Assembly: GCA_000004985.1 (NCBI GenBank)
Contig: GG738902.1
DNA from: Naegleria gruberi
Lineage: Eukaryota
Strand: one strand, 5' to 3'
DNA length: 64,000 nt
The position numbers and the translations under genes were made by a program. The notes under the pieces are model-generated. The model made no database searches, was not told the origin of the DNA, and saw nothing but the letters and a program-made list of their open reading frames with translations. Below, one piece after another: positions 6,029-64,000 of this stretch. The stretch's first letter is position 1, and every line of letters begins with the position of its first letter.

Positions 6029-7348
6029 ATGACTGAACAACAAACAGTGTTAATTGATGATCTTCAATTAATTTCAAATCAATTTCCATGTGGTGATATT
6101 CTTTGGGAAATTTTATCATTTTGTAATGATTTTACATTTATTGTAATGAATTGTGCACTAGTTTCCAAACAGTGGTACCATGTCATTTTGGAAAGATGTA
6201 AACTCTCATTAACCTGCAATTCGGATCAGAAATTGAAGGGAAAATTTCTTGAAAGAGTTTCAAATTTCACAGTTAAAAAGAATGAAGAAGGAAATTTGTT
6301 TAATTGTCAAATTTTTGAATGTTTGAAGAATTTGACAAGAATTGATATCAGTGATAATGAAATTAGCGATGAAAGGGTTAAGCATTTTGGTAATTTGACT
6401 CATTTGACAAATCTTGTAATTAATTGTAACGACATTGGTGTAGAGGGAGCTAAATGTCTTTGTCAACTGAATCAATTAACAAGGCTTAATATTGGAAACA
6501 ACAGTCTTGAGACTGAAGGTGCTAAATACATTAGTGAACTGAAGAATTTGACCAAACTTGATATCGCTCGCAACTGTATTGGTGATAGAGGTGCTCAATT
6601 TATTACTGAAATGAAACAACTGACTTCTCTAAACCTTAACAGGAATGGAATTGAATATTTAGGAGCAAAATTTATTAGTGAAATGTATCAATTAACGAGT
6701 CTTGATATCAGTAACAATGACATTGGTTCTGAAGGAGCTAAACAAATTAGCAAACTCGACCAATTGACCAAACTATATATTTACGATAATAATATTGGTG
6801 ATGAAGGAGCTATGCACATTAGCGAAATGAAACAACTAACTAATCTCGATATTAGCAGGAATGATATTGACTCAGAAGGTGCCAAATCCATATGTGAACT
6901 CTATCAATTAACAAATCTCAATATTTGTTCGAATTACATTGGTGAAACAGGTGCCAAGCATATCAGTGAAATGAATAATTTGACCATTCTTGAAATTGGC
7001 AGTAATGAAATTGGATCTGAAGGAGCGTATCATATCAGCAGAATGCACCAATTGACTAGGCTCATGATTTTTGCTAATGATATTGGAGAAAAAGGGGCCA
7101 AACATGTTTCTGAGATGAAACAATTAACTAAACTCGATATTTATGATAATAATATTGGTGATGAGGGAACTATACACATTAGCGAAATGAAACAATTAAC
7201 CTACCTCGATGTTTCAGCCAATAATATTGGTCACGAAGGTGCTGAATATATTAGGAAATTGAATCGATTGACATTTCTTAATGTTCACTATAATTCATTC
7301 AGTGATAGTGAATCAGAACTTATAGAAAAGGAGTTAATGAAGGATTAA
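6029..7348 (+). CDS. F-box / RNI-like leucine-rich-repeat protein (about 13 repeats of 24 aa).
   Basis: The N-terminus is F-box-like (DILWEILSFCNDFTFIVMNCALVSKQWYHVI). It is followed by regular repeats of the form L(T)xLxIxxNxIGxEGAKxISEMKQ. Confidence 0.75.
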   Translation: MTEQQTVLIDDLQLISNQFPCGDILWEILSFCNDFTFIVMNCALVSKQWYHVILERCKLSLTCNSDQKLKGKFLERVSNFTVKKNEEGNLFNCQIFECLKNLTRIDISDNEISDERVKHFGNLTHLTNLVINCNDIGVEGAKCLCQLNQLTRLNIGNNSLETEGAKYISELKNLTKLDIARNCIGDRGAQFITEMKQLTSLNLNRNGIEYLGAKFISEMYQLTSLDISNNDIGSEGAKQISKLDQLTKLYIYDNNIGDEGAMHISEMKQLTNLDISRNDIDSEGAKSICELYQLTNLNICSNYIGETGAKHISEMNNLTILEIGSNEIGSEGAYHISRMHQLTRLMIFANDIGEKGAKHVSEMKQLTKLDIYDNNIGDEGTIHISEMKQLTYLDVSANNIGHEGAEYIRKLNRLTFLNVHYNSFSDSESELIEKELMKD

Positions 7349-29555: not shown

Positions 29556-31460
29556 TCAACTTGATAATTCAATCAGGTAAATTCCAATTTGAACTTTTTT
29601 AGGAATAAATTGTTGTAATTCAACAGTTTCGTTTCCAAGGCTCTCCATGATTTTTCTTAATAATTCATAAATTTCAATAATTTCACTTAATTCATCCTTA
29701 TTTAACAATTGAATGTCAGTTAAATATTCTTGATTCAAATATGTTTTGATAAATTCATCCAATACTATTAACTTCTCTTCCAATTCTTGAATATATTTGG
29801 TCAATTTCATTAAAAAATTCTCCGATTTAATGCTTTCTACCATACAAGTCATGTTTAACTTTAGTTCATCAACTTGTGAACTTTCTTGTTCAAGTTTCAA
29901 TTCATTAGCATGTTCAAAACAATTCTTTAACTTTTCACAAATTTCCAAATATTCTTTTTGAAATTCATTTTCTAATACAGTACATAAAACCTTAATTGCA
30001 TTGATTTGTGAATTGGATTGAGTTTCTTCTTGTCTTTCAATATTTGTTTCTTGTGTTTCGTCTTGTTCTTTAATATTTTCGTCTTGTTTTTCGAGAGTTT
30101 CTTGATTTTCATCATGTTTTTCCTCTTGTTGTTCGAGAGTTTCTTGGTTTTCATCATGTTTTTCAAGTGGTTCTTGTTTTTCAAGAATTTCTTTCTTAAT
30201 TTTATCTTTTTCAACTTTTTCATTCAATTCCTTCTTAATTTTGGAAATTTCCTTTCCGTTGACTTTCCATAAATTGTTAATTTTAATATTTGGTGATTGA
30301 AGTAATAATTTAACAATTTCTAAACGTCCTTTTTCACATGCAATATGTAATGGAGACTAATAAATATTTAAAAATGTTGTAATTATTATTACTTACTTCC
30401 TATTATGGTAATGTTTAAAATAAGTATTAAATACAAACCATCTAAATAATAATGTAAAATATTTTAAATATTTAATTCTTACATGCTACGAGGAAATAAT
30501 TAATAAATTAATTATTAATTTACATACTTCCTAAAATAGATAAATAATTTAATTGGTTAATTACTCACTTTCTAATAACAAAGTTGGCAAATTAATTTCA
30601 ATATTTAATAATACTAACTTCCTATTAAAAAAATTAATATTAAATATTAAAAATACTAACAATCTAAAAAAATGTAAATATTTAAAATTGTTTAAAAACT
30701 TACAACTCTCTAAAACAAATATACACGTAATTTAATTAGTAGAGACTTACTTGCTAATAAAAATATTAATTTAAGATTATATTACTTAAATTACATACTT
30801 CCTAATAAGGAACTTGTTCATAAATAAAGAATTTAATACTTACTCCCTAATAATATTAACATTAAATAGTTATAAGTGAAATACTAACTTTCTAATAAAT
30901 TATTTTATAAATAACTAAGTATTAAATACTTACATGCTAATAAAATGCTAATTTAATACAAAATTACCAAATTTAGAATACTTACATACTAAAAATAGTA
31001 TTATTTTTATATTTTTTAATATTAAATTACTTACAGTCTGAAAATATTATTATTACAATGCTAGCAACACTTACAAACTAATAGCATTAAATATAAATAA
31101 TTAATTATTCAATTCCTTACATACTAATTAATTATTTAGTATTTTACAATATTTCCTTAAATACTTACTTTCTACAATCATACCCATTTAGATCTTATTA
31201 AACAATTGATATTCTACTCACATACTACTCAATTTTAAATATTTATAATGTTAATATTAAATAGTACTTACTCCCTTATTCACATCAAGTCCTCCACAAT
31301 TCAACAATAACTTGACAATTTCCAAATGTCCCCTCTCACAAGCCATGTACAACAATGTCTTATTCCGATCAGATTCATTTACCTTCGTTGGCTTGAAATA
31401 CTTTTTAAACTCGGCAACGTTTCCACTATTTGCAGCATCTACAAGATGAGGAGAGAGCAT
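29556..31460 (-). CDS. Ankyrin-repeat protein with a long Glu/Lys-rich coiled-coil C-terminus. The first coding exon is 31460..31272, the last is 30356..29556, and about 915 bp of intron between them carries the tandem splice-site array.
   Basis: The ATG is in an A-rich context. Exon 1 is MLSPHLVDAANSG...TLLYMACERGHLEIVKLLLNCGGLDVNKG|GTAAGT, an ANK repeat ending in phase 0. The last exon is TTAG|SPLHIACEKGRLEIVKLLLQSPNIKIN..., the second ANK repeat entering in phase 0, followed by an E/K-rich helical region. The downstream ORF 29234..29572 (-1 frame; PVEEKKEE repeats) may be a continuation across a frameshift or an unrecognised intron. Confidence 0.6.
30380..31240 (-). repeat. Tandem array of about 20 diverged ~45-bp units, each carrying (on the minus strand) a 3' splice site YTAG, then 3 nt (6 nt in one unit), then a consensus 5' splice site GTAAGT / GTATGT / GTGAGT.
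   Basis: On the plus strand the recurring core is aaTACTTAC-NNN-CTAATAA. On the minus strand the units read TAATAG|GAA|GTAAGT, CGTAG|CAT|GTAAGA, TTTTAG|GAA|GTATGT, TTAG|AAA|GTGAGT and so on. All inter-signal spacers are multiples of 3 and none is a stop codon. Confidence 0.7.
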
Positions 31461-31611
31461 TTTGATGTTTGGTGTTGTTTTGTTTTTTTTGAATGAAATT
31501 TTCTTTTTATCACCATATTAAGGCCTTAATGAAAGTTCATTATGGTTTGGGAACTTGTAATTTCTAGAAGTTGCGTTTGGAGTTTAATTAGAATGTTTAA
31601 AAATTGAAGTA

Positions 31612-33585
31612 TTAATCAGAATCACCAGAATATGATTCATAATCATCGGTTGAAATCATTTCTTGTTCGCGTGGTAAACCATTAATGTAATCGGCATAAT
31701 CTACTCGCAAATATTTGACTAAATGGAAAAATTGAGATCGTAGCATGGTGTTACCTTGAACGAACTCTCGTGCTTCGATTTCTACACTATTACAGTTAAT
31801 TTCTAGTAAACGGATAGCTAGCTCAATTATTCCTGTTTGTATCAGGGCAAGATTCCTCTTATTTTCAATGTCAAAATTAAGAACTTTCAGTGTTTTAGTT
31901 TTGGCTAAAGTAAAGTTGACTGCCTTATCAATATCCAATAGAGCTATTAAACCTGCAAAAATGTAAATGGAACGTTTCTCCAACATTGCTCGCATTAAAA
32001 TTTCTACTAGCTTTTCAAGATTAGGTGGCTTAATTCCTTTCACAATATAGTCACAAACTAAATTGATGAGGCAGTTATTATTTAGTGGAATCCAAGAGTT
32101 TTTGATAGCCAAGCTATAAATAAATTCCATATTTGATACCGCATTGCTTATAGGTTCAATAGCGTCATACATTTGATATGAAACAAGTACTCTTGCTGGT
32201 CCAGTTAGTTCATTATTTGATCTGAAATAGAAGAGTAATAAATCCGAAATGACTTTCCTTATGTTATCATCCAAAAGTTGTTTCTCTGAAAGCAGTTGGT
32301 GTATGCGTAAACATAGAACCAATCGACCAGCCATTGTTTCTGGAAGTACGGTTTTCCAAGTTATAAATCCAGGTATTAAAGATTTAACAGCTAGCACCAT
32401 CCTTTCCGTCATTCCTAATATTATTAAAATGGTTTCTATGAATTTGAAATACTCAGATTCAAGTGGATATTTTACAATATTAGAAATTATACTTGTCAAT
32501 TCGTCATCCTTAATCATCTTGTTAGTTAATTCCATTGTAGCACACAAAAAATTAAGAAATGGTTCAACATCCTCAGGTGTTTCCACTTTAAATTCAATCG
32601 TACCGTTGTAAATTACTTCCAAACATGACTGATCGAGCATAATTTGGTCCAAATGATATGGTAAACCTAGTAATAAAATTTTTCTAATGGAATATGGAGC
32701 ATTTTCGAGAATCTCTTTGATATAGAAATTTCCGAATGTTTCATCGCTGAAAAGGGCACATTTCATGGCTATTTCTCGTAAATCTAACAACTCTGTAGCA
32801 TCCCCAATAATTCTAAAATAATGTGCAATGAATGCACTAAATTTGAGTTTTTCAACAACTTTCAAAGCTTTTCTTAATCTTTGATTGTGTTCTTCATTTC
32901 GTTCCAAATCACTAATAGCATCAAACTCTTGATTTAGAAAAGCAAATGTTGGAAACGGACAACTATGAGCATAGATTCGGAGTATGTCTATTAAATTCTC
33001 ATCTGGTTCTACGTCAATTCTTTCATATAATAGTTGGAATAAGTTTTGCAACATTGGTTCATTTTTGGTTGTACGAACAATTCTAAGGTCTGCATACTTT
33101 GAAAGTAATTTTTTTTCTCTTGTTGTCCATTTTGGACACATTGCCTTGTCATTCCAATATTTTTCATTATAATGTGACAAGAAATCAATTAACTTGATGT
33201 AAAAAACATGAGAAAGAGTAGCACCTTCAGTATTCATACACGCCCAGACAGCATGAAAATACCAATACGGTACCACATGTTCATACTTAGTATTTGGAAA
33301 CAGAAAATTGTCCCTTGTCTCCTTATAGTCATCCAAAAATCGATAAACCAACTGGCCAGCACCACCAAGGTTGATCACTTTAAATAAATTTGTAATATCA
33401 TCATCGTCACTCCAAGAAATTTCCGTAAATGTTTCTTCATCTTCCATCATGTCATTTTGAACAATATCACACAACAGTTCATAGCTTGTGTAAATGTCTC
33501 CCCCAGGCAGCTCATCGGACAGTTGTGACTTGTGCAAATGTTCCTTCAGAGCATCACGGTTAGGTCCATCACGAAGTTTGAACAT
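31612..33585 (-). CDS. Hypothetical protein (657 aa), predominantly helical, with an acidic C-terminal tail.
   Basis: Long ORF with an ATG start and neighbour-like codon usage. No recognisable domain. Confidence 0.5.
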   Translation of the reverse strand: MFKLRDGPNRDALKEHLHKSQLSDELPGGDIYTSYELLCDIVQNDMMEDEETFTEISWSDDDDITNLFKVINLGGAGQLVYRFLDDYKETRDNFLFPNTKYEHVVPYWYFHAVWACMNTEGATLSHVFYIKLIDFLSHYNEKYWNDKAMCPKWTTREKKLLSKYADLRIVRTTKNEPMLQNLFQLLYERIDVEPDENLIDILRIYAHSCPFPTFAFLNQEFDAISDLERNEEHNQRLRKALKVVEKLKFSAFIAHYFRIIGDATELLDLREIAMKCALFSDETFGNFYIKEILENAPYSIRKILLLGLPYHLDQIMLDQSCLEVIYNGTIEFKVETPEDVEPFLNFLCATMELTNKMIKDDELTSIISNIVKYPLESEYFKFIETILIILGMTERMVLAVKSLIPGFITWKTVLPETMAGRLVLCLRIHQLLSEKQLLDDNIRKVISDLLLFYFRSNNELTGPARVLVSYQMYDAIEPISNAVSNMEFIYSLAIKNSWIPLNNNCLINLVCDYIVKGIKPPNLEKLVEILMRAMLEKRSIYIFAGLIALLDIDKAVNFTLAKTKTLKVLNFDIENKRNLALIQTGIIELAIRLLEINCNSVEIEAREFVQGNTMLRSQFFHLVKYLRVDYADYINGLPREQEMISTDDYESYSGDSD

Positions 33586-54863: not shown

Positions 54864-55200
54864 ATGAGCAAACGAACAAGAATTGCACTGGCCGATTTAT
54901 CCGAAATTAATAACAACAAGAAAAAATTGATCATTTCATGGAACAATTTTCCAATATTTTCGGATGATGTAATTTTTGAAATTGTTTCATTCATTGAAAC
55001 AATTGAAATATCTAAATCTTTCCCATAACTTTATTTATGCAAGAGGAGCAATAGCAATTAGTGACTTGGAGCAATTGACTCATCTTGATTTGGTGTCATC
55101 CAATAGTATTCATGATACTCCACGTTATAAGAAATCATTTAACGAATTTAAACAGTTGAAAACTCTTAATATTTCAATTCAATTTCATCAAAGACGCTAA
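54864..55200 (+). pseudogene. Truncated and frameshifted F-box/LRR gene fragment: an F-box-like N-terminus (54864..55028), then a +1 shift into three LRRs (54976..55200).
   Basis: MSKRTRIALADLSEINNNKKKLIISWNNFPIFSDDVIFEIVSFIETIEISKSFP* overlaps out of frame with LKQLKYLNLSHNFIYARGAIAISDLEQLTHLDL... It resembles the 6029..7348 family but is only about 110 aa and has no continuous frame. Confidence 0.4.
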
Positions 55201-55426
55201 TGAGAATAGCTGAATCGACACAATTCAAATTGGCTAATTCAATTATTTATCGTTATTAATTGGTAGATGTGGATTCTTTTATTGTAAAGTATTTTCAATA
55301 TTCCTTTCAAATCACGATTTCAAAATAACCAAATCATTTTCAATCAATATCTTAAACTATAACCAATCACAGTTGACTTTAATCAATCAAAATCATCAAA
55401 TTCAAAACAGATCAACAACTAAAAAA

Positions 55427-56407
55427 ATGATCAAACTCTCCACTCGTCTCCCCAAAGGATTTCTCTCCACAACCTTCAAAAAAACTTCCAATCCTCATCA
55501 CCGATCATTAATTTCCACTTTAAGAAAATTCACATCATCACCAACAAACGAACGCAAATTTCACAACAACTTGATTTCTCCTCTTCGTTCCTCCAATAAT
55601 AACAAATTACATAATTTCGGAGATGCTGATGAAAATGGTGCTGAAAATGACAAGGTGAGGAACAAGAAAAGAATTGGAGAATTGAATGATCTGTTAGAAT
55701 TTAATCCAAATTTCACAGATGCCTTGATTGAAAGATCAAAATGTTATGAAGGGTTGAGTGAATGGAAACTTGCAAGTGCTGATCTAGAGAAGGTTTTAGA
55801 GATTGAACCAAATAGAGATGATATTGTTTCACATTTGGAACAATTATATTGGTTTTATATACAAAAGGAGAATTACAATGTTAAATTGGCTAATAATTAT
55901 TTGGAAAGAGCATTTGAAATTGTTTCGAATAATGCAGTTCAAGTGCCATTTTCATATTATAGGTCACTTTATTCCATCTGTTATGAATTGGAACAGTTTG
56001 AAAAGGCTATTTCTTATGCAACAAAGGGAATTAAATCGATTGAGTCAACTGGACCAATTGAAATTGGAAGTAAGGAAGCTGATGATTTGGCTGCATTGTT
56101 ATGTAGAAGAGGAAGTGTATTGATTACAAAGTTTAAAATGATTGAACGTGGAAGACAAGATTTAGAACGAGCTCTCTCATTAGCTTCCTCAAAATACGAA
56201 CCTCTAGTTCTCATGTTAGATTCTTTCAAATATTTAAAGAACCACGATCTAGTTATGGAGACGTACAATTTAGTGAAAGAACTCGAAAAGAAGGAGACTA
56301 GAACGGATGAGAAAACCTTATTAGAATATCAAAGGGTTTGGTTAGGATTCAGAGTTGATTTATTTGGGTTGTTTAAGAGATTACTTAGTGAAGATTCATA
56401 TCATTGA
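55427..56407 (+). CDS. TPR-like helical-repeat protein with a basic Ser/Thr-rich N-terminal presequence (possibly organellar). It is the last gene before the subtelomere.
   Basis: The first ATG, in an A-rich context, is at 55427 (the ORF-track start at 55373 is TTG). Paired amphipathic helices with TPR-like spacing. The assignment is by eye. Confidence 0.45.
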   Translation: MIKLSTRLPKGFLSTTFKKTSNPHHRSLISTLRKFTSSPTNERKFHNNLISPLRSSNNNKLHNFGDADENGAENDKVRNKKRIGELNDLLEFNPNFTDALIERSKCYEGLSEWKLASADLEKVLEIEPNRDDIVSHLEQLYWFYIQKENYNVKLANNYLERAFEIVSNNAVQVPFSYYRSLYSICYELEQFEKAISYATKGIKSIESTGPIEIGSKEADDLAALLCRRGSVLITKFKMIERGRQDLERALSLASSKYEPLVLMLDSFKYLKNHDLVMETYNLVKELEKKETRTDEKTLLEYQRVWLGFRVDLFGLFKRLLSEDSYH

Positions 56408-56588
56408 TTATATTTCTTATCATCTATAAATGATGTAAATTTGATGGTTTCATTTCTTATATTGATAGATATATAAAGGTCAGGTCAGAACTAACTTTTG
56501 TATTATGGACTTTGAGAAGTCAAATGTTTGGGACGTGAATCTACTCATTAGATTGAATAGGTATTGCTAATAAAGTAACATTTCATTG

Positions 56589-57780
56589 ATTTATTGATTA
56601 TAACGGTCAAATTGAGTTGAATGGAAGTGATTCTAATGTTGATTCATCGTGGAATGGGTAGTTTCGCCACGAAGTGGTGCAACTACCAACCTTTGTAGAT
56701 TGAATCAGGTTGATTTGCATGCAATATGAAATATCTAGCATTATCAAGAGTGATTATTCACCAATTCAATGATCAATATTCAATAATCGGTTTGATTTCA
56801 ATCAATAGCTTGATCAACAAGCTTTGAATATTAATATTCCAGTAATTAACGGCAGTCTATTTTTAAATTTAATCAAAGACCATATTTAGTAGCTTGACTT
56901 TTATGATCTGGAAACTATCTAGATGTGTTCTATATTGAATAATCTATTTGAAAATGAGATGAATTAACTCTTCTATTGAGTTTTATTGGTATTGGATGCT
57001 ATTACGGTTATAATAATCTACACAGAAATGACTCTTCAAATATAAACTGTACTACAATGTATGAGAAACATAATGGTGGTGGAATTAATCAATAACTCGT
57101 TGAAATGACTGAGATGGAATGTAAACTATGGTCTATTTGTCATGTAATGGTGACTAGACAGTGTCAATTTCATCAAATTATTTCAAACTGATTACAATCA
57201 ATAAAAACCCGTTCTATACATCAAACATGTCATATAGAATGAGTTCCAACATTTAATATTGTGAACTGACTCTGTTGGATACCATCTCTATAAATATAAC
57301 AAGATGAAAAGTGCCAATACTCAATTTCACATGTATGTTACTATGGAGAGTCATCATTATATCATATAGATAGGTAATATTTCAAGTTTCAGTGGAATTG
57401 ACTGTCTAGATATTGAGATGTGTTTACTAAGGTTGATGAAGTGTCACCTTCACTGAATCCTGACATGAATATAACAATTGAACATACTATTCTTGTGTCA
57501 ATAATTCATTATTCAATGATTGTGATATGATGGTAAAATTTAATTTTGGAAATATAATTCTTCCCTATTGACAACCTTAGATGTTCCTTAGTTGACTTGA
57601 AGATATTGAGCCATCAACATGAAACTTTCTCAGATTGTTGTCCTCATCAAGGGAAGTGTATTCATGTTTGACACTTGTATGATGTTTTGTAAATTGACTG
57701 AGATGGTATACATTCTATATGTTGAAATGTGACAATATGATAGATTGTTATTATTATCATACTGAATTCAATTATAACAG
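56589..57780. repeat. Subtelomeric segmental duplicate A1 (about 1.2 kb; roughly 90% identical to A2 at 58549..59600).
   Basis: Direct comparison: ttattgattataacggtcaaattgagttgaatggaagtga ... gttgaaatgtgacaat recurs after the first N gap, with scattered substitutions and one roughly 130-bp indel. Confidence 0.8.
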
Positions 57781-58498
57781 ACTAAAATTGATACCATATA
57801 TACAATAGTGTGATAAAACATATCTGGTTAAGTTACAGGATGATTGGATGTACTTTCACTGAGCTGGAGTGTTCACTAGGATATATATAGTGTTAACATT
57901 AAACATTTACTGATTAATTTTATGAAAGTAGTTTGAAATGTTTCTAAACTATTGTAGATGTATTTAATTGATATATAGACTATGTGGTATCAATTCTAGA
58001 CTTTTTATATGTAAAATGAGTGAGTTGGAGTATAATCTATGATATCATGTCAAATGTCTATAGTAAATTGATAGAGTTGACAACTCGACATCTACTGAAC
58101 CAATATTCATGAAATTGATACCACATACTAATTAGAGTGTCTGCATACCATGATATCAATTTCAGTGAAATTGGAGTTGTTTCTGGACCCTTCAGATTTC
58201 CATCCATTCTCCTGACAAATCACCATGTACTATCTACTGGATACATTTCTTGAAATGAAAACATATAATTTGATGAAAGTACACTTTATTTGAGATGTAG
58301 AACACGATATTATCATTTATTTTGAGATTGGTAACTTTTCCTATAGAGTGTAATCCTTAATTGTCTTAATTGACTAAAAGAGGTCAAGGAGAGATTTCAA
58401 ATCATAAAATAAATTATATTTTCGAGATTTACTATCGATTTCCAATCGATTGATATGTATTTTGTAGATTGACGAAGTGGTTCTCTATTGAAGATTCC

Positions 58499-58548
58499 NN
58501 NNNNNNNNNNNNNNNNNNNNNNNNNNNNNNNNNNNNNNNNNNNNNNNN
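58499..58548. other. Scaffold gap (50 N).
   Basis: Run of N characters. Confidence 0.99.
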
Positions 58549-59600
58549 TTATTGATTATAACGGTCAAATTGAGTTGAATGGAAGTGAATCACATGTTGA
58601 TTCATCGTGGATGGGTAGTTTCGCCACGAAGTGGTGCAACTACCAACCTTTGTAGATTGAATCAGGTTGATTTGAATGCAATATGAATAAGTAACATTAT
58701 CAAGAGTGATTATTCACCAATTCAATGATCAATATTCAATAATCGGTTTGATTTCAATCAATAGCTTGATCAACAAGCTTTGAATTATTATTCCAGTAAT
58801 TAACGGCAGTCTATTTTTAAATTTAATCAAAGACCATATATAGTAGCCAGAAATCACTCTTGAAATATAAACTGTACTACAATGTATGAGAAACATAATG
58901 GTGGTGGAATTAATCAATAACTCGTTGAAATGACTGAGATGGAATGTAAACTATGGTCTATTTGTCATGTAGTGGTGACTAGACAGTGTCAATTTCATCA
59001 AATTATTTCAAACCGATTACATTCAATAAAAAACCGTTCTATACATCAAACATGCCATACAGTATGAGTTTCAATATTTAATATCGTGAACTGACTCTGT
59101 TGGATACCATCTCTATAAATATAACAAGATGAAAAGTGTCAACATTCAATTACACATGCATGTAACTATGAAGAGTCATCATTATATCATCTAGATAGGT
59201 AATATTTCAAGTTTCAGTGGAATTGACTGTCTACATATTGAGATGTGTATACTAAGGCTGAAGAAGTGTCACCTTCACTGATTACTGACATGAATATGAC
59301 AATTGAATATATTATTGTTGCATAAATAATTCATTGTTCAATGATTATGATATGATGGTAAAATTTAATTTTGGAATTAAGATACTTCCCTATTCATTAC
59401 CTTAGATGTTCCTTAGATGACTTGAAGATATTGAGCCATGAATATGAAACTTTCTCAGATTGTTCTCCTCATGAAGGGAAGTGTATTCATATTAGATACT
59501 TGTATTATATTTTGTAAACTGACTGAGATGGTATATAATCTATATGTTGAAATGTGACAATTTGACAGATTGTTATTATTATCATATTGAATTCAATTCT
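58549..59600. repeat. Subtelomeric segmental duplicate A2. It starts at the gap edge and ends at the junction with the gene-fragment/telomere-seed.
   Basis: See A1. The copy diverges from A1 after gaattcaatt. Confidence 0.8.
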
Positions 59601-59603
59601 AGT

Positions 59604-59690
59604 GGGTTTGGTTAGGATTCAGAGTTGATTTATTTGGGTTATTTAAGAGATTACTTAGTGAAGATTTTGGTTTGGGTTTGGGTTTGGGTT
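59604..59690 (+). repeat. A 63-bp duplicate of the 3' end of the TPR gene (a copy of 56335..56397 with 1 mismatch), joined directly to a short interstitial (TTTGGG)4 telomere-repeat block (59666..59690).
   Basis: gggtttggttaggattcagagttgatttatttgggttRtttaagagattacttagtgaagatt is followed by ttggtttgggtttgggtttgggtt. Confidence 0.85.
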
Positions 59691-61016
59691 AGACGAAAAC
59701 CCATCGACGACTAACGAACGGCCAATATTGAGTATCTGAATTTCATATATGTCATTCAAATATAAATAAAAAGCTTATATTGTAACGAAGCAGTCATATC
59801 TCAAAGTAGTTATAGAGATAATCAACTCTGATAAAATAAAAGTTAGGTTTTCCCGGTATTACTCTATGAATATGGAGATCGCCGGTCTGGATTAAATATA
59901 TGTAGTAGATATAAATATGAGTTGACTATATTCGCAAATAAATTTGAAAAATATCATTGCGTTCAAAAATAATAAGGCACTTCCTGAAATATTAAGATAT
60001 TTACCCTAGTAGGTCTAAAATTTCAAAGTTGGGTTGAAATGTAAATTTTAGTATATTGTAGATATATATATGAATAGATGATATTATGAATTAATCATGT
60101 TGAATCGGTGTATTTAATAAGTTACAACATGTCTAAAAATTAACTTTTCAACATTTATTGTACTATAATATGAATGTTATTACAATCATCACTAATCTCA
60201 TATATATGATGTATAATGATGATATTCACATTGTAGAAGTGTTGGAAGTATAATATATGATATCCTTAGTATACTGTACTCATTCTACCTTAATTGACCA
60301 AGATATTGAGCCATACTATGGAAACACTATACCAATTTATTAAACTTGTTAATATTTTAGTAAATATCAAATATAATCATATATAATTGAAATAATTATT
60401 ATTTGATCCATATTCAGACTGTAGGAAGTCTACTTGTGTGAAATTGACAATATCGGTTATTGAAGGATGAATATCTTACATGACTTAATTCCACTCATTG
60501 ATACATGTCTAATTATCGTATTTTATGATATGTAATTGAAATAATTGAAATCTATCATATATTTAGGGAGATAACCAATTAGGATGAGAGTAGGGGAAGT
60601 TACGCTTACTATTTACCAGGTAAACACTTTCAATAGGGACCCATATATTTTATTTGATAATATCGTATATATATGCATTTTATCGACAAATAATTGGTAT
60701 CATGGTTTTATATCCTATATTATCAATTTGGGAAATGTTGCAATGTCTAATCTCAATAGAAATATTGCCATAATACCAATTATTGATTATATATCATGAA
60801 ACTGATATTATTGACTCTAATTGATGTTTATATGAATATATGATTGAAATATTTGATTTTTGACATTTCTTAATGACATGGATAGTTCACTAAGGTAGTG
60901 ACTTTGCCATATGACAACTGTCTAAGATGATATTGAAATCATTCCTAAATTGATATTATGATAGTATTAGATGATTATAACACGATAGTAATGAATTGGA
61001 AGTGATTCTTACCATT

Positions 61017-62068
61017 TATGACATGTAAGAATGTTACCTTTGATCAATTGGACCACTAGCTTGACAGATATCCCATTTATATAGATATTGATTTCTATCA
61101 CTCAGAAACGTTACCAATATCATTTATAAGAGTAGTGGTATGATATTCTATCTTGTTGTACTTCTTGGTATTGACTTGTCATATTGTCATGAGTAGTTGC
61201 TGACATGGTTAAATGACATGAAAAGTGAATGAAGTCCAAATGATATGAAATTGATAAGAACCTCATTATATGATGTTAATAACATATTGTATCAATTTGG
61301 TAATGAATCTCATTGTCCTTAGGGTACTTCCCTATTGAGGTACCTTAATTGACTATCTCAATATTTAATATGTGATATGATATTTATTTCAATTGTATCA
61401 TGTTATATATGTAATTTGAAGCATTTTGATATAAGTTTTGATATTTAAATATGATTTAATAGATATCATATATAGCAACTCTTAGTTTTTCAAAATTGAC
61501 TTTGAGATACTCTAATTGACCATATATATATGACCAATTAATGAAACTAATATCAATCGACTAGATTTTCAATTGTGAACACAATGGTATCAACAGTTAT
61601 ATGATTCATGATAGTTTAAAATTGCGTTGGTCATCTAAGGATAGGTCATTAAGGTTTGAATGAATTGATATGAAATTCAATACCAATTATTGATATACCA
61701 TGATTTATTGATCTATATATGATATTATAATTGAAATATTTTAAAATTAATATCATTTGACTATTTTGACATTCATAATTCTCATGATTACACTCCTGAC
61801 ATGTTGGATGATTTCATATTGTCTTGAAACTGATATACTAGTGTTTGTACACCACTAGTAAGGTACTGTATCAGTTTCATGATGATCTGTATAGTGGATG
61901 TAATTGTCACATCCCTGTAGGTGTCAAGTAGATCAGCCAAGTACCATGTATGATATGGATGATCTTCAAAATCAAATAGATATATTTAATTATCATGTAT
62001 AGATGTATTAGAAGTGAATTGAAGTGGAAAAGATTTCTATCTTCAGTGTTAGTATAGGTCAGTTGACA
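61017..62068. repeat. Subtelomeric duplicate B1 (1052 bp, essentially identical to B2). It is followed immediately by an interstitial telomere array.
   Basis: tatgacatgtaagaatgttacctttgatcaattggacc ... cttcagtgttagtataggtcagttgaca is present twice with the same length. Confidence 0.85.
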
Positions 62069-62212
62069 GGGTTTGGGTTTGGGTTTGGGTTTGGGTTTGG
62101 GTTTGGGTTTGGGTTTGGGTTTGGGTTTGGGTTTGGGTTTGGGTTTGGGTTGGGTTTGGGTTTGGGTTTGGGTTTGGGTTTGGGTTTGGGTTGGGTTTGG
62201 GTTTGGGTTTGG
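62069..62212 (+). repeat. Interstitial (TTTGGG)n telomere-repeat array (about 24 units), running into an N gap.
   Basis: Perfect gggttt hexamers with occasional gggtt variants; the G-rich strand is on the + strand. Confidence 0.9.
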
Positions 62213-62262
62213 NNNNNNNNNNNNNNNNNNNNNNNNNNNNNNNNNNNNNNNNNNNNNNNNNN
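62213..62262. other. Scaffold gap (50 N), with a further single N at 62264.
   Basis: Run of N characters. Confidence 0.99.
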
Positions 62263-62264
62263 TN

Positions 62265-63316
62265 TATGACATGTAAGAATGTTACCTTTGATCAATTGGA
62301 CCACTAGCTTGACAGATATCCCATTTATATAGATATTGATTTCTATCACTCAGAAACGTTACCAATATCATTTATAAGAGTAGTGGTATGATATTCTATC
62401 TTGTTGTACTTCTTGGTATTGACTTGTCATATTGTCATGAGTAGTTGCTGACATGGTTAAATGACATGAAAAGTGAATGAAGTCCAAATGATATGAAATT
62501 GATAAGAACCTCATTATATGATGTTAATAACATATTGTATCAATTTGGTAATGAATCTCATTGTCCTTAGGGTACTTCCCTATTGAGGTACCTTAATTGA
62601 CTATCTCAATATTTAATATGTGATATGATATTTATTTCAATTGTATCATGTTATATATGTAATTTGAAGCATTTTGATATAAGTTTTGATATTTAAATAT
62701 GATTTAATAGATATCATATATAGCAACTCTTAGTTTTTCAAAATTGACTTTGAGATACTCTAATTGACCATATATATATGACCAATTAATGAAACTAATA
62801 TCAATCGACTAGATTTTCAATTGTGAACACAATGGTATCAACAGTTATATGATTCATGATAGTTTAAAATTGCGTTGGTCATCTAAGGATAGGTCATTAA
62901 GGTTTGAATGAATTGATATGAAATTCAATACCAATTATTGATATACCATGATTTATTGATCTATATATGATATTATAATTGAAATATTTTAAAATTAATA
63001 TCATTTGACTATTTTGACATTCATAATTCTCATGATTACACTCCTGACATGTTGGATGATTTCATATTGTCTTGAAACTGATATACTAGTGTTTGTACAC
63101 CACTAGTAAGGTACTGTATCAGTTTCATGATGATCTGTATAGTGGATGTAATTGTCACATCCCTGTAGGTGTCAAGTAGATCAGCCAAGTACCATGTATG
63201 ATATGGATGATCTTCAAAATCAAATAGATATATTTAATTATCATGTATAGATGTATTAGAAGTGAATTGAAGTGGAAAAGATTTCTATCTTCAGTGTTAG
63301 TATAGGTCAGTTGACA
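62265..63316. repeat. Subtelomeric duplicate B2. Unlike B1 it continues into 314 bp of unique AT-rich DNA before the terminal telomere array.
   Basis: See B1. Confidence 0.85.
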
Positions 63317-63630
63317 AGTTGAATAGTAAACATCCTGAAATGATACCAAAGTATTTGAAATTGATATATATTGTTATTAACATGATTTAAAAGGTGATAT
63401 ATTGATTTGAAATGATTTTGAAATGTTTTCATTGATATTCTAATTGTCTAATCTATTATATGAAATTAACTTATATAAGTCATTATAATGATGTAATATT
63501 ATGTTATATTATGATTATATATTCAATTTGGAGTATATTGATATATAATATATTGATTTATAATGAGTATTTATTGAGATAATTAATTAAGAAGAATAAA
63601 AGTCAAAAGGTTGGGTCTGACCTTAGTCGT

Positions 63631-64000
63631 GGGTTTTGGTTTGGGTTTGGGTTTGGGTTTGGGTTTGGGTTTGGGTTGGGTTTGGGTTTGGGTTTGGGTT
63701 TGGGTTTGGGTTTGGGTTTGGGTTTGGGTTTGGGTTTGGGTTTGGGTTTGGGTTTGGGTTTGGGTTTGGGTTTGGGTTTGGGTTTGGGTTTGGGTTTGGG
63801 TGTTTGGGTTTGGGTTTGGGTTTGGGTTTGGGTTTGGGTTTGGGTTTGGGTTTGGGTTTGGGTTGGGTTTGGGTTTGGGTTTGGGTTTGGGTTTGGGTTT
63901 GGGTTTGGGTTTGGGTTTGGGTTTGGGTTTGGGTTTGGGTTTGGGTTTGGGTTTGGGTTTGGGTTTGGGTCCGGGTTTGGGTTTGGGTTTGGGTTTGGGT
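63631..64000 (+). repeat. Terminal telomere array (TTTGGG)n, about 60 units, with the G-rich strand running 5'->3' toward the window end. Variants: GGGTT (one T missing) several times, GGGTGTTTGGG near 63800, and GGGTCCGGGTTT near 63968.
   Basis: Uninterrupted hexamer array to the last base of the window, so this is the right-hand chromosome or contig end. Confidence 0.9.

What the first reader, a model, noticed from the sequence alone, without database searches (positions are those of the whole stretch)
59604..59690. Fragment of the last gene's 3' end fused to a short telomere-repeat seed inside the subtelomere
A 63-bp copy of the 3' end of the TPR gene (56335..56397) reappears 3.2 kb downstream, abutting (TTTGGG)4 and then a GC-richer unique junction (agacgaaaacccatcgacgactaacgaacggcc). 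The gene 3' end itself contains telomere-like stretches (gggtttgg, tttatttgggtt), which could prime telomerase. The arrangement looks like the footprint of an old chromosome break healed by telomere addition within the gene 3' end, later buried by subtelomeric duplication. Alternatively it is a scaffolding chimera.
Basis: seen in the sequence. Interest (0 to 1): 0.55.

Follow-up and report, generated by a model that had tools for sequence, protein, structure and literature searches.

The report
Buried telomere seed in Naegleria subtelomere
Near the end of a Naegleria gruberi chromosome, a short run of telomere repeats sits 3.9 kb inside the chromosome next to a re-copied 63-base piece, which is the ordinary kind of scar left when a broken chromosome end is capped by telomerase and later extended again.

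Summary
Window 59604-59666 repeats 56334-56396 at 62/63 bases. It runs straight into 26 nt of TTTGGG-type repeat (59665-59690), followed by an unusually CpG-dense unique flank. The window is the right end of a Naegleria gruberi scaffold, and TTTGGG is that species' candidate telomere repeat.

The seed has the same orientation as the terminal tract and the same odd first unit (TTTTGG). It starts exactly where the other copy continues with unrelated sequence. It lies inside a gap-free contig, so it is not a scaffolding join.

Two points change the story:
- **The 63-mer is not an old gene 3' end.** The TPR gene has lost about 280 C-terminal residues relative to two paralogues. Homology stops 4 nt before the 63-mer, which opens with GGGTTTGG. 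The gene's own tail therefore begins at a telomere-type junction.
- **The upstream "subtelomeric duplications" are doubtful.** Each follows a 50-N gap and starts inside the homology, so they are probably unmerged alternative contigs. One of them shows a second telomere placed 313 bp short of the other.

Best reading: repeated end breakage, telomerase healing and re-extension left a short interstitial telomere tract. This is a new member of a known kind and of modest interest. A mirrored 18-nt motif at two telomere borders remains unexplained.

The parts
55427..56407 (+). Last gene on the arm: a 326-aa TPR protein, 3'-truncated relative to its paralogues
   Evidence: It is 100% identical to the NCBI 'predicted protein [Naegleria gruberi]' P0001. 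It has a TPR_2 match. It aligns with paralogue P0002 residues 26-301, equal to window 55505-56329 only. P0002 (582 aa) and P0004 (622 aa) are collinear over a further ~280 aa that this gene lacks.
56334..56396 (+). E1: proximal copy of the 63-nt element, encoding most of the gene's non-homologous 25-aa tail. It opens with the telomeric octamer GGGTTTGG and holds a second one (TTTGGGTT at 56363).
   Evidence: It starts 4 nt after paralogue homology ends.
56591..57776 (+). A1: subtelomeric block, with a 129-nt extra segment (56894-57022) relative to A2
   Evidence: 95.7% identity over 303 nt and 92.2% over 754 nt to A2.
58499..58548 (.). 50-N gap, the boundary between contig 1 and contig 2
58549..59601 (+). 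A2: second copy of the A block. Its homology to A1 starts at the very first base after the gap.
59602..59603 (+). GT filler between the end of A2 and E2 (up to 5 nt, CTAGT, if the last 3 aligned bases are discounted)
   Evidence: Junction alignment.
59604..59666 (+). E2: distal copy of the 63-nt element (the finding)
   Evidence: 62/63 identity to E1, E = 7e-26.
59665..59690 (+). Interstitial telomere seed TTTTGG(TTTGGG)3TT. The first TT is shared with E2.
   Evidence: It is 100% identical to 63634-63659, the start of the terminal tract.
59691..59723 (+). CpG-dense flank. Its reverse complement (59693-59714) resembles the terminal subtelomere/telomere junction at 63623-63640.
   Evidence: 5 CpG in 33 nt, one of 3 such loci in the window. 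Local alignment score 23, P = 0.0005-0.002 against random 42-mers. No match in plasmids, E. coli, prokaryotic genomes, viral contigs or metagenomes.
59691..61016 (+). U: AT-rich unique non-coding DNA distal to the seed
   Evidence: No significant self-similarity. No Pfam hit on its ORFs.
61017..62068 (+). B1 block
   Evidence: 100% identical to 62265-63316 over 1,052 nt.
62069..62212 (+). Second telomere tract (24 units), running into a 50-N gap. Probably the real end of an alternative, 313-bp shorter chromosome version.
   Evidence: The tract begins where the identical B2 copy continues with unique sequence.
62265..63316 (+). B2 block (start of contig 3). Homology to B1 begins at the first readable base after the gap.
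63317..63629 (+). Y: unique terminal subtelomeric DNA
63630..64000 (+). Terminal telomere tract (about 62 units of TTTGGG, first unit TTTTGG)
   Evidence: TTTGGG is reported as the candidate N. gruberi telomere repeat in PMC3622300.

Best explanation
The seed is a short interstitial telomeric sequence in a Naegleria gruberi subtelomere, the scar of a former chromosome end. This arm has gone through repeated rounds of terminal breakage or erosion, capping by telomerase, and re-extension with other DNA.

Shown:
1. The last gene is a 3'-truncated TPR paralogue. Its new tail starts at a telomeric octamer (56334).
2. The first 63 nt of that tail (E) occur again 3.27 kb distal, attached at the same octamer to the end of block A2.
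3. At ...GAAGATT the second copy switches to telomere repeats, whereas the first continues with unrelated DNA.
4. 3.9 kb of non-coding DNA and the present telomere lie beyond the seed.
5. A second telomere start lies 313 bp proximal to the present one, on otherwise identical sequence.

Inferred:
- A broken or eroded end carrying a few telomere repeats annealed at the GGGTTTGG of E and copied about 55 nt, as a templated, microhomology-primed insertion.
- Synthesis then aborted, and telomerase extended the ...ATT end. The two telomeric octamers 63 and 34 nt upstream could help recruit it, as in yeast SiRTAs.
- When this new telomere was only about 4 repeats long, it was joined to the distal block U-B-Y, either by end joining to another nearly repeat-free end or by break-induced copying.

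The seed has no demonstrated present function. By analogy it could act as a ready-made site for re-healing.
For: - Species and repeat unit.
- Repeat and seed statistics.
- Sharp unique-to-telomere switch with a TT overlap, compared with the reference copy.
- Same orientation as the terminal tract, and 26/26 identity to its base, including the TTTTGG unit that is absent from the other ~85 units.
- Gene truncation coinciding within 4 nt with both the telomeric octamer and the left edge of the repeat. The octamer is the only forward GGGTTTGG in 59.6 kb.
- Clustering of 2 of the window's 5 telomeric 8-mers inside E.
- An independent alternative telomere addition site on 100% identical sequence at the same end.
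- The feature lies inside a gap-free contig.
- The flank is not vector, E. coli or other prokaryotic or viral DNA.
- Precedents: subtelomeric ITSs (PMC6410037); SiRTAs and SiRTA-to-subtelomere translocations (PMC10055226 and PMC12709191).
Against: - No reads, no second assembly and no other N. gruberi chromosome end could be examined. Neither the physical reality of the junctions nor the donor of U-B-Y is verified.
- The scenario needs at least three events.
- The direction of copying (E1 to E2, or both from a third source) is not established.
- E as a whole is not unusually telomere-like in the whole window (top 1.2% of 63-mers).
- A functional telomere of only 26 nt is implausibly short, so internalisation must have happened at or just after addition. 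That also fits the repair-insertion rival.
- The order of contigs in the scaffold may be wrong. What lies proximal to A2 in the real chromosome is therefore uncertain.
Confidence: 0.55

Rival explanations
1. One-step insertion during repair of an internal double-strand break (short-ITS or TERC-ITS type). A break between the A2 end and U was repaired by end joining. A templated 55-63-nt copy of nearby DNA and a few telomerase-made repeats were inserted as filler, possibly together with a retro-copied piece of telomerase RNA (the CpG-dense flank). The site would never have been a chromosome end.
For: - The tract is very short (4.3 units), typical of short ITSs inserted at break sites (PMC2246262, PMC8537989).
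- The templated copy comes from only 3.27 kb away and is bounded by microhomologies (GGGTTTGG on the left, TT on the right).
- The flank 59691-59723 is compositionally foreign and contains AAAACCCA.
- The same ~18-nt motif occurs in mirror orientation at the other telomere border. This is the geometric relation seen between the type A and type B TERC-ITS organisations described in PMC8537989.
Against: - No empty orthologous locus is available to show a one-step insertion.
- The N. gruberi telomerase RNA is unknown, so the TERC-like claim cannot be tested.
- No Rfam family matches the region.
- The location, 4 kb from a chromosome end that demonstrably has alternative telomere addition sites, favours an end-related origin.
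Confidence: 0.2
2. Head-to-head fusion of two critically short chromosome ends. The end E2 plus 4 repeats fused to another end eroded down to about 1.5 repeats, now inverted at the start of U. The fusion product then broke and was healed distally.
For: The minus strand of 59693-59714 reads TTAGTCGTCGATGGGTTTTCGT. This resembles the present subtelomere/telomere junction TTAGTCG-TGGGTTTTGGT at 63623-63640 (score 23, P = 0.0005-0.002). A junction-like sequence therefore faces the seed head-on, with 2-5 nt of filler.
Against: - The similarity was noticed post hoc and covers only about 22 nt.
- The best weak matches of U to blocks A and X (60241-60325) are in the same, not the inverted, orientation.
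- The model does not explain why the present terminal junction, which would be a de novo healing site, carries the same motif.
- A dicentric intermediate and a further breakage have to be assumed.
Confidence: 0.1
3. Assembly or cloning artefact. A chimeric shotgun clone or a mis-joined read fused a real alternative chromosome end (A2-E2-telomere, sheared inside the repeat tract) to unrelated subtelomeric DNA (U).
For: - This is a Sanger-era draft scaffold.
- Its last 8 kb show clear assembly trouble: two 50-N gaps, each followed by a contig that starts inside a repeat of the previous contig (A2 at 92-96%, B2 at 100%).
- Coverage and reads are not available.
Against: - The junctions are inside a 3.66-kb gap-free contig.
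- A 26-nt repeat is far shorter than a Sanger read and cannot by itself cause a mis-join.
- The flank is not vector or E. coli DNA.
- Even under this rival the E2/telomere junction would be a genuine telomere addition site.
Confidence: 0.12

Closest known systems
Subtelomeric interstitial telomeric sequences: yeast X-(TG1-3)-Y' and tandem Y' junctions, and (TTAGGG)n islands at the borders of human subtelomeric blocks
   Same: It is a short tract of the species' own telomere repeat, in telomere orientation, at the border between subtelomeric blocks and a few kb from the real end. A second telomere-like junction (GGGTTTGG at 56334) sits at the border between the last gene and the subtelomere. 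The review PMC6410037 describes this class.
   Different: It has only 4.3 units. It could not be shown that the blocks on either side are shared among chromosome ends, because no other N. gruberi end was available. The tract is preceded by a 63-nt re-copied segment, which is not a feature of the yeast or human cases.
Chromosome healing by de novo telomere addition at telomere-like sites (yeast SiRTAs), and SiRTA-to-subtelomere translocations
   Same: The TG-rich strand is oriented towards the end. Two telomere-like tracts lie 5' of the addition point, at 63 and 34 nt, comparable to the Stim and Core layout. Telomere repeats start at a short T-rich overlap. There is a truncated gene at the centromere-proximal side. 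PMC10055226 and PMC12709191 describe both the addition and the capture of subtelomeric donor sequence at such sites.
   Different: There is no functional evidence here, such as binding of a Cdc13/CST-type protein or a measured addition frequency. The healed end is no longer terminal. The organism is a heterolobosean with a regular TTTGGG repeat.
Short ITSs and TERC-ITSs inserted at double-strand break repair sites in vertebrates
   Same: A few exact repeats lie between unrelated sequences, with microhomology and filler at the junctions. There is a compositionally odd flank next to the repeats. The motif orientation is mirrored between an upstream and a downstream instance (PMC8537989; PMC2246262).
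   Different: Those loci are defined by comparison with an empty orthologous locus and by identity of the flank to the known telomerase RNA. Neither comparison is available here. This locus is subtelomeric rather than chromosome-internal.

Membership tests
Interstitial telomeric sequence (short / subtelomeric ITS) | Tandem copies of the species' own telomere repeat | tested here: met
   TTTTGG(TTTGGG)3TT at 59665-59690. The unit equals that of the 371-nt terminal tract and the published candidate N. gruberi repeat.
Interstitial telomeric sequence (short / subtelomeric ITS) | Non-terminal position in the real chromosome | tested here: inconclusive
   It is inside a gap-free contig with 3.9 kb of distal DNA. 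No reads or second assembly could be obtained.
Interstitial telomeric sequence (short / subtelomeric ITS) | For the subtelomeric class: lies between subtelomeric blocks, in the same orientation as the terminal tract | tested here: met
   All three tracts carry the G strand on +. The seed separates A2/E2 from U-B-Y.
De novo telomere addition (chromosome healing) footprint | Abrupt switch from unique sequence to telomere repeats at a point where a reference copy continues with other sequence | tested here: met
   E1 continues ...GAAGATT|CATATCATTGA. E2 continues ...GAAGATT|TTGGTTTGGG.
De novo telomere addition (chromosome healing) footprint | Short overlap between the primer end and the repeat register | tested here: met
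   A TT overlap at 59665-59666 is shared by E and the seed.
De novo telomere addition (chromosome healing) footprint | Everything distal is lost, so the tract is terminal | tested here: not met
   3.9 kb of non-telomeric DNA follows. The tract can therefore only be a former end. By contrast, the tract at 62069 meets this feature if contigs 2 and 3 overlap.
De novo telomere addition (chromosome healing) footprint | Dependence on telomerase | not testable with these tools
   Needs genetics or biochemistry.
SiRTA-like site (site of repair-associated telomere addition) | A telomere-like tract 5' of the addition point on the TG-rich strand, oriented towards the nearest end | tested here: met
   GGGTTTGG at position 1 and TTTGGGTT at position 30 of E, with addition at position 63. 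These are 2 of 5 telomeric 8-mers in 59.6 kb.
SiRTA-like site (site of repair-associated telomere addition) | Binding of the single-strand telomere protein, and an elevated addition frequency after a distal break | not testable with these tools
   Experimental criteria (PMC10055226).
TERC-ITS (telomerase-RNA-flanked ITS) | The flank is identical to part of the species' telomerase RNA | not testable with these tools
   The N. gruberi telomerase RNA is not known to me, and there is no Rfam hit in 55000-64000.
TERC-ITS (telomerase-RNA-flanked ITS) | An orthologous empty locus shows a one-step insertion | not testable with these tools
   No related genome was accessible.
Head-to-head telomere fusion junction | A G-strand tract abutting a C-strand tract | tested here: inconclusive
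   Only AAAACCCA (59697-59704) follows the seed, after 6 nt. The inverted junction-like motif has P = 0.0005-0.002 but was found post hoc.

The most novel reading that the evidence does not exclude
The CpG-dense sequence next to the seed (59691-59723) and its mirror-image relative at the base of the terminal telomere (63623-63640) are both fragments retro-copied from the Naegleria telomerase RNA during telomerase-mediated end repair, as in vertebrate TERC-ITSs. On the minus strand the sequence would read 5'-...UUAGUCGUCGAUGGGUUUUCGUCU-AACCCAAACCC...-3', which is a template preceded by its 5' boundary region. That would give the first sequence handle on a heterolobosean telomerase RNA. It would also show that RNA-templated break repair by telomerase exists far outside vertebrates.
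Probability: 0.05. Interest if true: 0.7.

Novelty: new member of a known kind. Interest (0 to 1): 0.3.

Why it matters
My literature searches found nothing on Naegleria telomeres beyond the candidate TTTGGG repeat. This one chromosome end shows three things:
- a gene truncated at a telomere-type junction;
- a buried telomere seed;
- two alternative telomere start points on identical sequence.

Together these suggest that breakage, telomerase healing and re-extension shape Naegleria subtelomeres much as they do in yeast, Plasmodium and humans. This is useful for anyone finishing Naegleria genomes, because the last 8 kb of this scaffold probably stack alternative ends in series. It is also useful for studies of gene birth and loss at chromosome ends, because the TPR gene acquired a new 25-codon tail. 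It does not reveal a new kind of system.

Tried and rejected
- **Other assemblies.** Exact-product look-ups for the G-alpha gene, P0001 and P0002 found nothing. Exact pattern scans for the core of E and for the flank in metagenome, prokaryotic-genome and viral collections also found nothing. No other copy or other N. gruberi end could be compared.
- **Contamination or vector origin of the CpG-dense flank.** No match in plasmids or E. coli genomes. Rejected.
- **Structured RNA, including telomerase RNA.** No Rfam match at E <= 1 in 55000-64000.
- **Coding content of the subtelomere.** The longest ORFs (48-71 aa) have no Pfam match.
- **Leftover of the missing TPR C-terminal half downstream of the gene.** tblastn with the paralogue finds nothing better than E of about 1. 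The loss is a true deletion, not a missed intron or a displaced exon.
- **'E is a decayed telomere tract'.** 28/63 matches to the GGGTTT register is in the top 0.4% of subtelomeric 63-mers. It is only in the top 1.2% of all 63-mers in the window, with about 80 loci as good. Not supported; only the two exact octamers stand out.
- **One-event tandem duplication of E-S-A.** This predicts equal divergence of E and A. Observed values are 1.6% against 4-8% (P = 0.04-0.07), and A1 is followed by X rather than by E. Weakly disfavoured.
- **Fold-back (hairpin) origin of the seed/flank junction.** Only a 6-bp inverted repeat (TGGGTT / AACCCA), and the sequence beyond it is not the reverse complement of the upstream DNA. 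Rejected.
- **The Fritz-Laylin 2010 genome paper.** It is not held in the library, so assembly conventions and heterozygosity could not be checked.

Full report
**Source of the window.** The ORF at 55373-56407 is 100% identical to a 326-aa 'predicted protein [Naegleria gruberi]' on a 305,921-bp contig. The window is gene-dense, about 33% G+C, and ends in about 62 units of TTTGGG. TTTGGG was reported as the candidate telomere repeat of N. gruberi from genome data (PMC3622300). The window is therefore the right end of an N. gruberi draft scaffold. My literature searches found nothing else on Naegleria telomeres or subtelomeres.

**Check of the observation.**
- 56334-56396 and 59604-59666 match at 62 of 63 bases (E = 7e-26). 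The one difference is a synonymous third-position change in the gene copy.
- The distal copy runs into TTTTGG TTTGGG TTTGGG TTTGGG TT (59665-59690).
- A 12-nt telomere pattern with at most 1 mismatch is expected 0.4 times per shuffled window. It occurs only in three tracts (59665, 62069, 63630), all with the G strand on +.
- The next 33 nt carry 5 CpG. Only three loci in the 64 kb are that CpG-dense.
- This flank matches nothing in plasmid, E. coli, prokaryotic, viral or metagenome collections.

**Anatomy of the last 8 kb**:

| Part | Coordinates | Note |
|---|---|---|
| TPR gene | to 56407 | last gene on the arm |
| E1 | 56334-56396 | proximal 63-mer |
| spacer | 56397-56590 | |
| A1 | 56591-57776 | |
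| X | 57777-58498 | unique |
| gap | 58499-58548 | 50 N |
| A2 | 58549-59601 | 92-96% identical to A1 |
| GT | 59602-59603 | filler |
| E2 | 59604-59666 | distal 63-mer |
| seed | 59665-59690 | telomere repeats |
| U | 59691-61016 | unique |
| B1 | 61017-62068 | |
| telomere tract | 62069-62212 | 24 units |
| gap | 62213-62262 | 50 N |
| B2 | 62265-63316 | 100% identical to B1 |
| Y | 63317-63629 | unique |
| terminal tract | 63630-64000 | about 62 units |

No ORF in the subtelomere has a Pfam match, and no Rfam family matches.

**Assembly state.** Both gaps are exactly 50 N. In both cases the contig after the gap starts, from its first base, inside sequence already present 1.2-2 kb upstream in the previous contig. 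That is what unmerged overlapping contigs laid in series look like; this reading is my inference.

For B the two versions are identical over 1,052 nt and then differ only in where the telomere starts. One version reads ...GTTGACA|GGGTTTGGG. The other reads ...GTTGACA|AGTTGAATAG, followed by 313 nt and then the telomere. This is most simply two versions of one chromosome end, one of them truncated and re-capped.

A1 and A2 (4-8% divergent) would then be diverged alleles or paralogous ends rather than a tandem duplication.

The seed itself is 1,055 and 2,522 nt away from the two gaps, so it is not a scaffolding join. A 26-nt repeat is also too short to mislead an overlap assembler working with Sanger reads (inference).

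**The 63-mer is not an old gene end.**
- The closest paralogue, P0002 (582 aa, 60% identity), aligns with the window gene only over residues 26-301, which is window 55505-56329.
- P0002 continues for 281 residues. A third N. gruberi paralogue, P0004 (622 aa), is collinear with P0002 over both halves.
- The long form is therefore ancestral, and the window gene has lost its C-terminal half. No trace of the missing half lies downstream.
- The gene's remaining 25 codons (QRVWLGFRVDLFGLFKRLLSEDSYH) are unrelated to the paralogues.
- E1 begins 4 nt after homology ends, with GGGTTTGG, the only forward copy of that octamer in 59.6 kb.
- E1 also holds TTTGGGTT. Together these are 2 of the 5 exact telomeric 8-mers found in that sequence on both strands.

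Three boundaries therefore coincide at 56330-56334: the end of paralogue homology, the start of a telomeric octamer, and the left edge of the repeat. The 'native' copy is itself attached at a telomere-type junction. Both copies of E are preceded by unrelated DNA (truncated gene; end of A2) and begin at the same octamer.

**The right edge.** E1 continues ...GAAGATT|CATATCATTGA. E2 continues ...GAAGATT|TTGGTTTGGGTTTGGG. This is the classical sequence signature of telomere addition onto a non-telomeric 3' end with a 2-nt overlap.

The 26-nt seed is identical to the first 26 nt of the terminal tract, including the variant TTTTGG first unit. That unit occurs nowhere else in about 85 units. This suggests either a bias of the first telomerase round or common descent of the two tract bases. 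I cannot tell which.

**Age.** E1 and E2 differ at 1.6%, against 4.3-7.7% for the neighbouring A blocks (P = 0.04-0.07). The re-copying of E looks younger than the A1/A2 split. This weakly argues against a single duplication of E plus A, and against 'old'.

**Most likely mechanism.** The steps below are inferred unless marked shown.
1. This arm has repeatedly lost its tip.
2. One event truncated the TPR gene (shown). The junction retains a telomeric octamer (shown).
3. A later broken or eroded end, at the end of an A block and carrying a few telomere repeats, annealed at the GGGTTTGG of E. It copied about 55 nt as a templated, microhomology-primed insertion.
4. Synthesis aborted, and telomerase extended the ...ATT end (junction shown).
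5. [quoted passage not shown] There, a TG-rich tract 5' of the addition point recruits telomerase after resection (PMC10055226).
6. While still about 4 units long, the new tract was joined to U-B-Y. This happened either by copying from another subtelomere, as described for such sites in yeast (PMC12709191), or by end joining.
7. The alternative telomere at 62069 shows that re-capping is still happening at this end (shown, if contigs 2 and 3 overlap).

The result belongs to the known class of subtelomeric interstitial telomeric sequences (PMC6410037).

**An unexplained detail.** The reverse complement of 59693-59714 (TTAGTCGTCGATGGGTTTTCGT) resembles the present subtelomere/telomere junction at 63623-63640 (TTAGTCG-TGGGTTTTGGT). 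The local alignment score is 23, with P = 0.0005-0.002 against random 42-mers. I noticed it post hoc. A junction-like motif therefore faces the seed head-on.

This fits three ideas, none of which I could test:
- a head-to-head fusion with another end eroded to about 1.5 repeats;
- retro-copied telomerase RNA fragments, whose upstream and downstream forms are mirror images in vertebrates (PMC8537989);
- terminal inverted repeats of a 3.9-kb block.

Against the fusion idea, the best weak matches of U to blocks A and X are co-oriented. The model also does not explain why the present terminal junction has the same motif.

**Rivals.**
- One-step insertion at an internal break (short ITS or TERC-ITS type): 0.2.
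- Head-to-head fusion: 0.1.
- Chimeric clone or mis-join: 0.12.
- Best explanation (former end, healed and re-extended): 0.55.

Even under the chimera rival, the E2/telomere junction would be a genuine addition site.

**Verdict.** The decisive test is to map existing long reads of N. gruberi (PMC12695648) across 55000-64000 and to search all other chromosome ends for E and for the junction motif.

Noticed in passing
window 55427-56407 (breakpoint 56329-56334): The last gene is a 3'-truncated TPR paralogue. Two N. gruberi paralogues (582 and 622 aa) have about 280 more C-terminal residues. The window gene instead has a 25-codon unrelated tail that begins at a telomeric octamer.
   Followed up: yes
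window 61017-63316, with the tract at 62069-62212 and the gap at 62213-62262: Two 1,052-nt blocks are 100% identical, separated by a 24-unit telomere tract and a 50-N gap. This is most simply two versions of the same chromosome end, with telomeres starting 313 bp apart, stacked in series by the scaffolder.
   Followed up: partly
window 59693-59714 (minus strand) and 63623-63640: A mirrored ~18-nt motif, TTAGTCG(TCGA)TGGGTTTT(C/G)GT, lies next to the seed and next to the terminal tract. P = 0.0005-0.002 against random 42-mers, noticed post hoc and unexplained.
   Followed up: partly
window 59691-59890: There is a CpG-rich patch (9 CpG per 200 nt against a window mean of 2.6, and 5 in the first 33 nt) in an otherwise CpG-poor, AT-rich non-coding subtelomere. 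It has no match in any searched collection.
   Followed up: partly
window 59665-59670 and 63634-63639: Both the seed and the terminal tract begin with the variant unit TTTTGG, which is absent from all other ~85 units. Other rare variants (TTGGG, GGGTGTTTGGG, TCCGGG) are scattered in the long tracts.
   Followed up: partly
window 57103, 57692, 58014, 58928, 59517: A 27-nt motif (AAATGACTGAGATGGAATGTAAACTAT and variants) recurs at 589- and 322-nt spacings. A CCTTAATTGAC...GATATTGAGCCAT motif recurs in A, X, U and B. The subtelomere appears to be built from an old, decayed repeat family.
   Followed up: no
window 56894-57022: A 129-nt segment is present in A1 and absent from A2 (an insertion or a deletion).
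   Followed up: no
window 58489-58497: Contig 1 ends with TGAAGATTC, the same 9-mer that spans the right edge of E1 (56389-56397). This is possibly chance.
   Followed up: no
window 6722-7259: A 72-nt (24-aa) tandem repeat of 7.5 copies lies inside an ORF and encodes leucine-rich-repeat-like units (IGDEGAKHISEMKQLTNLDI...).
   Followed up: no
window 30001-32000: This is the lowest-GC stretch of the window (24.8% against about 33%).
   Followed up: no
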